Source: Octopus vulgaris (lineage: Eukaryota). From it: DNA of 64,000 nt. A program made the position numbers and the translations under genes. Of this stretch, positions 20,143 through 20,338 are shown in pieces (the first letter of the stretch is position 1; each line of letters begins with the position of its first letter). Location: positions 44,516,001 through 44,580,000 of the forward strand of contig OX597819.1 in the NCBI GenBank assembly GCA_951406725.2, given 5' to 3'. Below the pieces are notes generated by a model, which was not told the origin of the DNA, searched no databases, and saw nothing but the letters and a program-made list of their open reading frames with translations.

Positions 20143-20338
20143 GTAGGTCCCGGGTTGAGTCGGGGTTAACCACAGTAAATAAGGTACTCAATACATAGAA
20201 GAGTAAATTAATTTATTTTATAGAAGGAGCTTCTACAGGACTAGAACTGTTTCATTCAAAAGAAATCATCAGGAAGCCTGATGATTTCTTTTGAATGAAA
20301 CAGTTCTAGTCCTGTAGAAGCTCCTTCTATGAAATTAA
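20143..20338 (-). mobile_element. Fold-back mini-element in (TA)n: 54-bp perfect inverted repeat plus ~75-nt tail; probable PLE pLTR fragment
   Basis: 20220-20273 is the exact reverse complement of 20277-20330, with loop AAG. Contains a hammerhead core. Confidence 0.85.
20229..20277 (-). ncRNA. Type I hammerhead ribozyme candidate
   Basis: Minus strand GCTTC-CTGATGA-TTTC(TTTT)GAAT-GAA-ACAG(TTCTAGTC)CTGT-A-GAAGC. Stem I GCTTC/GAAGC, stem III ACAG/CTGT, GUA triplet. Stem II is weak (U-U first pair). Confidence 0.7.

What the first reader, a model, noticed from the sequence alone, without database searches (positions are those of the whole stretch)
20143..20338. Perfect 54-bp fold-back mini-element built around an intact hammerhead core
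Seen: 20220-20273 is the exact reverse complement of 20277-20330 with a 3-nt loop. The inversion point lies within stem I of the ribozyme, immediately 5' of CTGATGA. The minus-strand copy keeps a complete stem I while the plus copy does not. A ~75-nt tail extends on one side only and (TA)n flanks both ends. Established: PLE insertions often have an inverted partial pLTR at the 5' end. Inference: a very young PLE-type insertion made by cDNA snap-back or self-primed second-strand synthesis. Any transcript would carry a ribozyme locked by its own antisense, or form a long hairpin.
Basis: partly seen in the sequence, partly recalled or inferred. Interest (0 to 1): 0.7.

Follow-up and report, generated by a model that had tools for sequence, protein, structure and literature searches.

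The report
Head-to-head Penelope retrotransposon stub
The hairpin is real and is one of many short mirror-image stubs of a protein-coding Penelope-type jumping gene inserted in TA repeats, a known layout; its two arms were likely copied separately from the start of one RNA and then joined, and sister copies carry scars that may record the predicted ribozyme cutting in the animal.

Summary
Observation confirmed. The 197-bp element is the pLTR end of a Hydra-type Penelope-like element (PLE); an intact 713-aa RT + GIY-YIG-like ORF follows the same sequence elsewhere in the genome. It is neither an artefact of this locus type nor a family with a fixed fold: junctions vary (0 nt to 7 kb) but pile up at one base 29 nt below a TATA box, often with an extra G, likely the capped RNA start. 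This exact junction recurs 69 times across subfamilies; 68 carry exactly one tail, on either arm (36:32). That excludes snap-back of one cDNA in 32 cases and favours two separately primed cDNAs annealed head-to-head. Sister arms carry arm-specific indels at the predicted hammerhead cut (19 of 134 arms), and some stubs have both arms starting there, hinting at cleavage in vivo; a competing hairpin over the same bases is a rival cause. The window copy has three private substitutions, so it is recent but not the youngest; its stem II lacks the usual G-C pair. The scan reported like stubs, the capped two-start reading and cut-site scars before on other DNA of this genome. Known kind; the mechanism is testable.

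The parts
20143..20339 (.). Whole head-to-head insertion of PLE pLTR sequence
   Evidence: 40 of 40 scored genome copies (of 249 candidates) match 187-196 of 196 nt at 94-100%; matches parent L138 on both strands
20143..20277 (-). Long arm, parent positions +2 to +136 (+1 = predicted transcription start)
   Evidence: alignment to parent copy L132, one substitution at 20199
20143..20210 (-). One-sided tail (+69 to +136); its end is the inferred second RT start site
   Evidence: in the parent this sequence runs on into the ORF; present on exactly one arm in 68 of 69 same-junction copies
20228..20278 (-). Type I hammerhead-like motif: stem I 20273-20278 with 20228-20233, CTGATGA 20266-20272, GAAA 20250-20253, predicted cut between 20234 and 20233
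   Evidence: sequence; fold of parent motif -7.4 kcal/mol; subfamily changes fall at N7, loop II and loop III; no Rfam match
20274..20277 (.). Junction: 3-nt loop (+3 to +5 of the long arm) and 1-nt microhomology at 20277 shared by both arms
   Evidence: same junction 69 times in the genome
20277..20339 (+). Short arm, parent positions +6 to +68; lacks the 5' strand of stem I; two private substitutions (20331, 20336)
19822..20142 (.). (TA)n target, left
20338..20429 (.). (TA)n target, right; no target-site duplication can be read inside it

Best explanation
The element is a promoterless head-to-head stub of a protein-coding Penelope-like retrotransposon, likely made during insertion when two cDNAs were primed separately from the two cut ends of a TA repeat and then annealed at their 3' ends. 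Shown: the sequence is the pLTR of a family with an intact RT + GIY-YIG-like ORF; copies sit in (TA)n; outer ends fall at +68 and +136, one each; inner ends pile up at +1. Inferred: +1 is the capped transcription start; the protein (probably a dimer) nicks both strands, starts one cDNA at +68 and the other at +136 on the 5'-proximal pLTR of one RNA; both run off the 5' end, are trimmed by a few bases, anneal through 1-6 nt of microhomology and copy each other. The stub lacks the TATA box and would not propagate by itself; read-through RNA is predicted to fold into the long hairpin, not the ribozyme.
For: Parent: TATAAA at -29, hammerhead at +1 to +51, ATG at +184, 713-aa ORF. 1251 exact hits of a 36-nt core, 0 for the reversed control. 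Of 100 core-anchored arms on C1, 35 keep the TATA box, 36 start at +1, 18 at +2, 4 at +3 and only 7 between -1 and -15 (three arms moved from +1 to +2 by hand). Non-native G at -1 in 18 of 36; 18 of 21 where the AG is not shared with the partner arm; an extra G marks cap copying in L1 (PMC11702581, PMC2912911, passages). Same junction: one tail in 68 of 69, two tails in 0, tail side 36:32. Subfamily markers agree between arms (T11A 18/18, T19C 19/19, T18A 21/22, A61T 17/19, T34A 9/13) and two private variants are shared, while indels are never identical in both arms. Two RT start sites, cleavage and extension of both strands, and a predicted dimer were reported for the anole PLE (PMC11167929).
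Against: No raw reads, RNA 5' ends or biochemistry (searches gave contigs only). The C1 sample was anchored on +3 onward, so later starts on the anchored arm are invisible. G at -1 can come from the partner arm in about half of the 18 cases, or from untemplated C addition. Marker agreement could also reflect gene conversion or one subfamily active at a time. The anole study saw no difference in start site between strands, so the one-tail rule has no in vitro support. Dimer not tested here. The ORF gave no RT or GIY-YIG hit in Pfam or PDB; domains rest on motifs.
Confidence: 0.75

Rival explanations
1. Snap-back: one cDNA folds on itself near its 3' end and copies itself to give the second arm (first reader; related to self-priming proposed in PMC3846280).
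For: Arms share subfamily markers and two private variants; junctions use tiny hairpin-like microhomology; compatible with the 36 copies, including this one, whose tail is on the +2 arm.
Against: In 32 of 68 copies the +2 arm, which must be the first strand, has no tail while its supposed copy has one. Six of nine tail-less G-at--1 arms have a fully tailed partner. Cut-site indels are arm-specific.
Confidence: 0.12
2. A non-autonomous hairpin family: a master palindrome is transcribed and retroposed whole.
For: 69 copies share the exact junction; top hits are 94-100% identical over the full length.
Against: ranks by likeness to the query. The junction occurs in at least three marker-defined subfamilies and with the tail on either side; many other junctions exist; no TATA box in the stub.
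Confidence: 0.06
3. Assembly or amplification fold-back artefact at this locus.
For: No long reads were available; no contig from other runs spans the whole element.
Against: Arms differ at two positions and in length; 69 loci share the junction; a contig from run X2 bridges a sister junction (20241-20322, two gaps) and other junction variants appear in X1, X2, X5 and X8.
Confidence: 0.03
4. For the scars only: the indel hot spot at +43 to +49 comes from RT slippage or repair at secondary structure, not from ribozyme cleavage.
For: A competing hairpin (+44 to +58) and the 3' strand of stem I cover the same bases and the hairpin wins in the +1 to +67 fold. The commonest scar removes G49, not G46. 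Nine of 20 arms starting at +46 are explained by 6-nt stem I microhomology. A second family showed no scars at its predicted cut in 30 loci. No reads ended at the cut in anole RNA-seq (PMC11167929). Stem II lacks G10.1-C11.1.
Against: Scars mostly keep A45 and C50 and change only the bases between. Arms start at +45/+46 far more often than at +43, and in 9 of 31 such insertions the partner also starts at +44 to +48, against 0 of 53 (p 5e-5), which points to a template that ended there.
Confidence: 0.4

Closest known systems
Inverted-pLTR insertions of EN+ Penelope-like elements (Adineta vaga Pen2a, PMC3846280; Fig. 2 legend of PMC8557442)
   Same: Head-to-head pLTRs, palindromic junction, tail on one end only, AT-rich target
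   Different: No ORF between the arms; tail 68 nt rather than 30-40; here the tail side is shown to be independent of the junction, against the self-priming reading
Hydra-clade PLEs, including Hydra-1_Obim (PMC8557442)
   Same: RWR, DKT, CxCX5C, no CCHH, CxxC and CxH motifs, hammerhead, (TA)n target; long stretches alike by eye
   Different: A different family: four DNA and two protein motifs of ours have 0 hits in the supplement and the hammerhead differs; full units 4.3-5.7 kb owing to a microsatellite-rich 3' region
Poseidon PAc of the green anole (PMC11167929)
   Same: Two internal RT start points defining the tail; AT-rich target; hammerhead in the pLTR
   Different: Other clade; the ORF starts after the tail here; that study found the ribozyme dispensable in vitro and no cut-site reads
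L1 twin priming (PMC2912911)
   Same: Two cDNAs primed from both target ends and annealed by microhomology
   Different: In L1 the cDNAs cover different parts of the RNA; here both cover the same 5' segment, giving a palindrome
Minimal type I hammerheads of metazoan PLEs (PMC4209133)
   Same: Core boxes, palindromic loop III, pairs on opposite strands close together
   Different: U-U instead of G10.1-C11.1; 3-bp stem II; 4-bp stem III

Membership tests
Hydra-clade PLE (parent element) | Single ORF with RT and C-terminal GIY-YIG endonuclease | tested here: met
   713 aa, YRDD and VY...YIG motifs; by motif only, Pfam and PDB gave no relevant hit
Hydra-clade PLE (parent element) | RWK and DKT motifs | tested here: met
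   RWR and DKT; Hydra-1_Obim has RWK
Hydra-clade PLE (parent element) | CxCX5C linker, no CCHH, CxxC and CxH beside the catalytic E and N | tested here: met
   read against the description
Hydra-clade PLE (parent element) | Insertion into (TA)n | tested here: met
Hydra-clade PLE (parent element) | Generally shorter than 3 kb | tested here: not met
   pLTR-to-pLTR 4340 and 5743 nt in L141 and L140; described as typical, not strict
Hydra-clade PLE (parent element) | Placement in the RT tree | not tested
   no tree or formal alignment to published Hydra proteins was run
PLE inverted insertion unit | 5'-truncated inverted pLTR head-to-head with a direct pLTR | tested here: met
PLE inverted insertion unit | Tail on one end only | tested here: met
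   68 of 69; 68 nt long
PLE inverted insertion unit | Target-site duplication | tested here: inconclusive
   both ends lie in (TA)n
Type I hammerhead ribozyme | CUGANGA, GAAA and NUH boxes | tested here: met
   N7 is the core base that varies between subfamilies
Type I hammerhead ribozyme | Stems I and III | tested here: met
   6-bp stem I and 4-bp stem III in the parent fold; minus copy here has one G-U
Type I hammerhead ribozyme | G10.1-C11.1 pair closing stem II | tested here: not met
   U-U in the window and parent copies
Type I hammerhead ribozyme | Match to an Rfam hammerhead model | tested here: not met
Type I hammerhead ribozyme | Self-cleavage | not testable with these tools
   only indirect genomic scars
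Non-autonomous family from a master copy (MITE-like or retrozyme) | Fixed structure inherited with lineage markers, or tandem hammerhead units | tested here: not met
   junction recurs across subfamilies with either tail side; single unit here

The most novel reading that the evidence does not exclude
These stubs are a fossil record of the PLE reaction: a dimer copies one RNA twice, from two start sites onto both target strands, and the pLTR hammerhead cuts that RNA in the animal despite its U-U stem II, leaving run-off ends and jump scars at the cut.
Probability: 0.45. Interest if true: 0.7.

Novelty: new member of a known kind. Interest (0 to 1): 0.42.

Why it matters
The locus itself is an ordinary dead insertion between LINE-like fragments. 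The family data bear on open questions: how PLE inverted ends and one-sided tails form (called undefined in PMC8557442; self-priming proposed in PMC3846280) and whether PLE hammerheads cut in vivo (no in vivo evidence in PMC4209133; none seen in PMC11167929). The one-tail rule, the extra G and the cut-site scars each give a direct prediction for an in vitro or cell assay.

Tried and rejected
Rfam at gathering and E<=10: no hammerhead, only hairpin-shaped miRNA models below threshold. Pfam and PDB on the ORF: nothing relevant. Sequencing runs: no RNA holder on record, only contigs, so no start, end or expression could be read; not used as evidence on expression. A 3' splice site reading of +1/+2 was considered (the upstream tract ends in TAG) and rejected: arms keep AG plus one G with no shared base further up. 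ORFs starting in the hammerhead stop at once (read from sequence). The second family (window 17401) showed no cut-site scars in 30 of 882 loci, but its core is non-canonical. Scar frequency did not differ between tailed and tail-less arms (7 of 68, 12 of 66; p 0.22). The short-arm comparison was mis-indexed and discarded; one search is used. Fifteen loci were picked for having G at -1 and are not counted as evidence. No structure or complex prediction was run. Look-up of earlier findings by sequence gave nothing.

Full report
Observation. The palindrome is exactly as described: 20220-20273 and 20277-20330 are reverse complements around AAG, with z = -17.8 and (TA)n on both sides. Alignment with 29 sister loci shows that the window copy differs from all of them at three positions; one, at 20331, ends the perfect arm. 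The real arms are 135 and about 63 nt.

Parent. A 36-nt core has 1251 exact matches in the 2.8-Gb genome, the reversed control none. Many copies continue upstream into a sequence with TATAAA, and some continue beyond the tail into an ORF. Numbering from the A of AGCTTCC as +1: TATAAA at -29, CTGATGA +7 to +13, predicted cut A45/G46, short end +68, tail end +136, ATG +184. Of seven long loci fetched, L138 holds an unbroken 713-aa ORF. Pfam and PDB do not recognise it, but it has YRDD, a C-terminal VY...YIG, RWR, DKT, CxCX5C, CxxC and CxH and no CCHH, the marks given for Hydra-clade PLEs, which target (TA)n (PMC8557442, Hydra section). By eye it resembles Hydra-1_Obim in that paper's supplement but is another family. 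No tree was built. Earlier scan notes call the host an octopus; I did not test this.

Fixed or variable fold. All 100 core matches listed for C1 were fetched; they form 89 insertions, 53 of them short inverted ones. Opposite-strand pairs lie 0 nt to 7 kb apart. Yet inner ends are sharply placed: 35 arms keep the TATA box, 36 start at +1, 18 at +2, 4 at +3, 7 between -1 and -15 (three arms reassigned by hand; starts after +3 cannot be seen on the anchored arm). Partner arms start at +1 to +7 in 42 of 53. A non-native G precedes +1 in 18 of 36 arms, 18 of 21 where the AG is not shared with the partner; about half of these G's could come from the partner arm. An extra G is read as cap copying in L1 (passages of PMC11702581 and PMC2912911). 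Inference: +1 is the capped RNA start, so the fold point is near-fixed because the template ends there.

Snap-back or two cDNAs. The window's junction occurs 69 times; all 69 were analysed. One tail in 68, none in 1 (a truncated copy), two in 0; the tail is on the +2 arm in 36 and on the +6 arm in 32. The loop bases come from the +2 arm, so under snap-back that arm is made first and its copy cannot reach further out; 32 copies break this rule. The junction occurs in several marker-defined subfamilies, which argues against one master hairpin. Markers agree between arms (T11A 18/18, T19C 19/19, T18A 21/22, A61T 17/19, T34A 9/13; two private variants shared), pointing to one template RNA or one source locus. 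In the C1 set the script labelled 47 of 53 as one-tailed and 6 as partial; none had two full tails. Both arms are antisense strands attached by their 5' ends to the two target ends, the geometry of twin target-primed reverse transcription. The anole PLE cleaves and extends both strands, starts at two internal sites that define the tail, and is predicted to dimerise (PMC11167929, text parts 1-2 of 4). PMC3846280 (passages and Discussion) describes the same head-to-head palindromes and proposes self-priming.

Ribozyme. Boxes, a 6-bp stem I and a 4-bp stem III with a palindromic loop are present; subfamily changes fall at N7 and in loops II and III. Against: stem II is 3 bp with U-U where G10.1-C11.1 is usual (PMC4209133, parts 1-2 of 4), Rfam finds nothing, and a hairpin at +44 to +58 outcompetes stem I in the longer fold. 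In the stub the long hairpin (-114 kcal/mol) far outweighs the ribozyme fold (-7.4), so a read-through RNA is predicted to be locked.

Scars. Among 134 fully aligned arms (4 of 138 dropped as incomplete), 19 have an indel starting at +43 to +49 and 2 have indels only elsewhere in +18 to +58; no scar is identical in both arms. The C1 set, without five shared loci, gives 12 of 127 against 1. Arms with a foreign base before +46, +45 and +43 number 96, 48 and 30; of the first 30 of each, 20, 14 and 6 are truncated there. Nine of the 20 use 6-nt stem I microhomology and need no cut. In 9 of 31 insertions with an arm starting at +45/+46 the partner also starts at +44 to +48 (one scored by hand), against 0 of 53 in the core-anchored set; the two sets were selected differently. 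This suggests templates cut at the predicted site in roughly 2% of arms, plus jumps across the cut, but slippage at structure is not excluded: G49 loss is the commonest scar, and a second family showed none in 30 of 882 loci. The window copy carries no scar.

Artefact. Only contigs were available. One bridges a sister junction; none spans this locus. Arm asymmetry and 69 like junctions make an artefact unlikely.

Context. The left flank is 82% like the LINE-type RT region at 34092-34928; the right flank translates like the end of a LINE ORF (RTE label recalled). No host gene was identified.

Known versus new. The layout is known. Six paper searches showed no two-cDNA model for PLE inverted ends and no cut-site scars, but the library lacks most subscription papers, older PLE reviews were not seen, and supplements other than that of PMC8557442 were not read. 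The retrozyme preprint 10.64898/2026.07.22.740005 was read in part 1 of 5. Unreviewed scan notes reached like readings on other DNA; I recorded my reading before seeing them, and they are not independent support. Verdict: a new member of a known kind, ordinary as a locus, moderately interesting as mechanism.

Noticed in passing
window 17401-17541: Second fold-back of another family: 36-bp arms, 1-nt loop, one-sided tail, (TA)n flanks; 882 exact hits of a 31-nt motif; relatives carry a hammerhead-like motif with C in place of U4, which this copy has lost. Parent ORF not sought.
   Followed up: partly
L142 (G000:C8:91.47 Mb), L143 (C2:64.63 Mb), C5:37.48 Mb: Head-to-head tandem arrays of 271-, 277- and 333-nt units of this family's pLTR, each unit with TATA box and hammerhead; L142 and L143 again end with one tail and one short end. 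Retrozyme-like; may reflect copying round a circular template.
   Followed up: partly
window 25519-27882 (-): Long open frame with RT (YLDD) and GIY-YIG-like CCHH motifs, likely a Penelope/Poseidon-type PLE; no tblastn match to this family's protein.
   Followed up: no
L117, L120, L121, L126, L128: Partial tandems in which a unit starting at +1, often with an extra G, is joined to varied internal points of the ORF: likely template jumps after the RNA 5' end.
   Followed up: partly
L235 (G000:C2:21.64 Mb): One arm spans +1 to about +45 and the other +46 to +136, as if the two predicted cleavage fragments were copied separately; single case, end ambiguous in (TA)n.
   Followed up: no
L002 and L003 (G000:C27): Two copies 3.8 kb apart share about 98% identical flanks: a local duplication, not separate insertions; both are counted among the 69.
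   Followed up: yes
window 33771-36869 (-), 40386-41090 (+): LINE-type endonuclease and RT reading frames, one interrupted by a long (TA)n.
   Followed up: no
window 57344-57824: 2.6 tandem copies of a 183-nt SINE-like unit.
   Followed up: no
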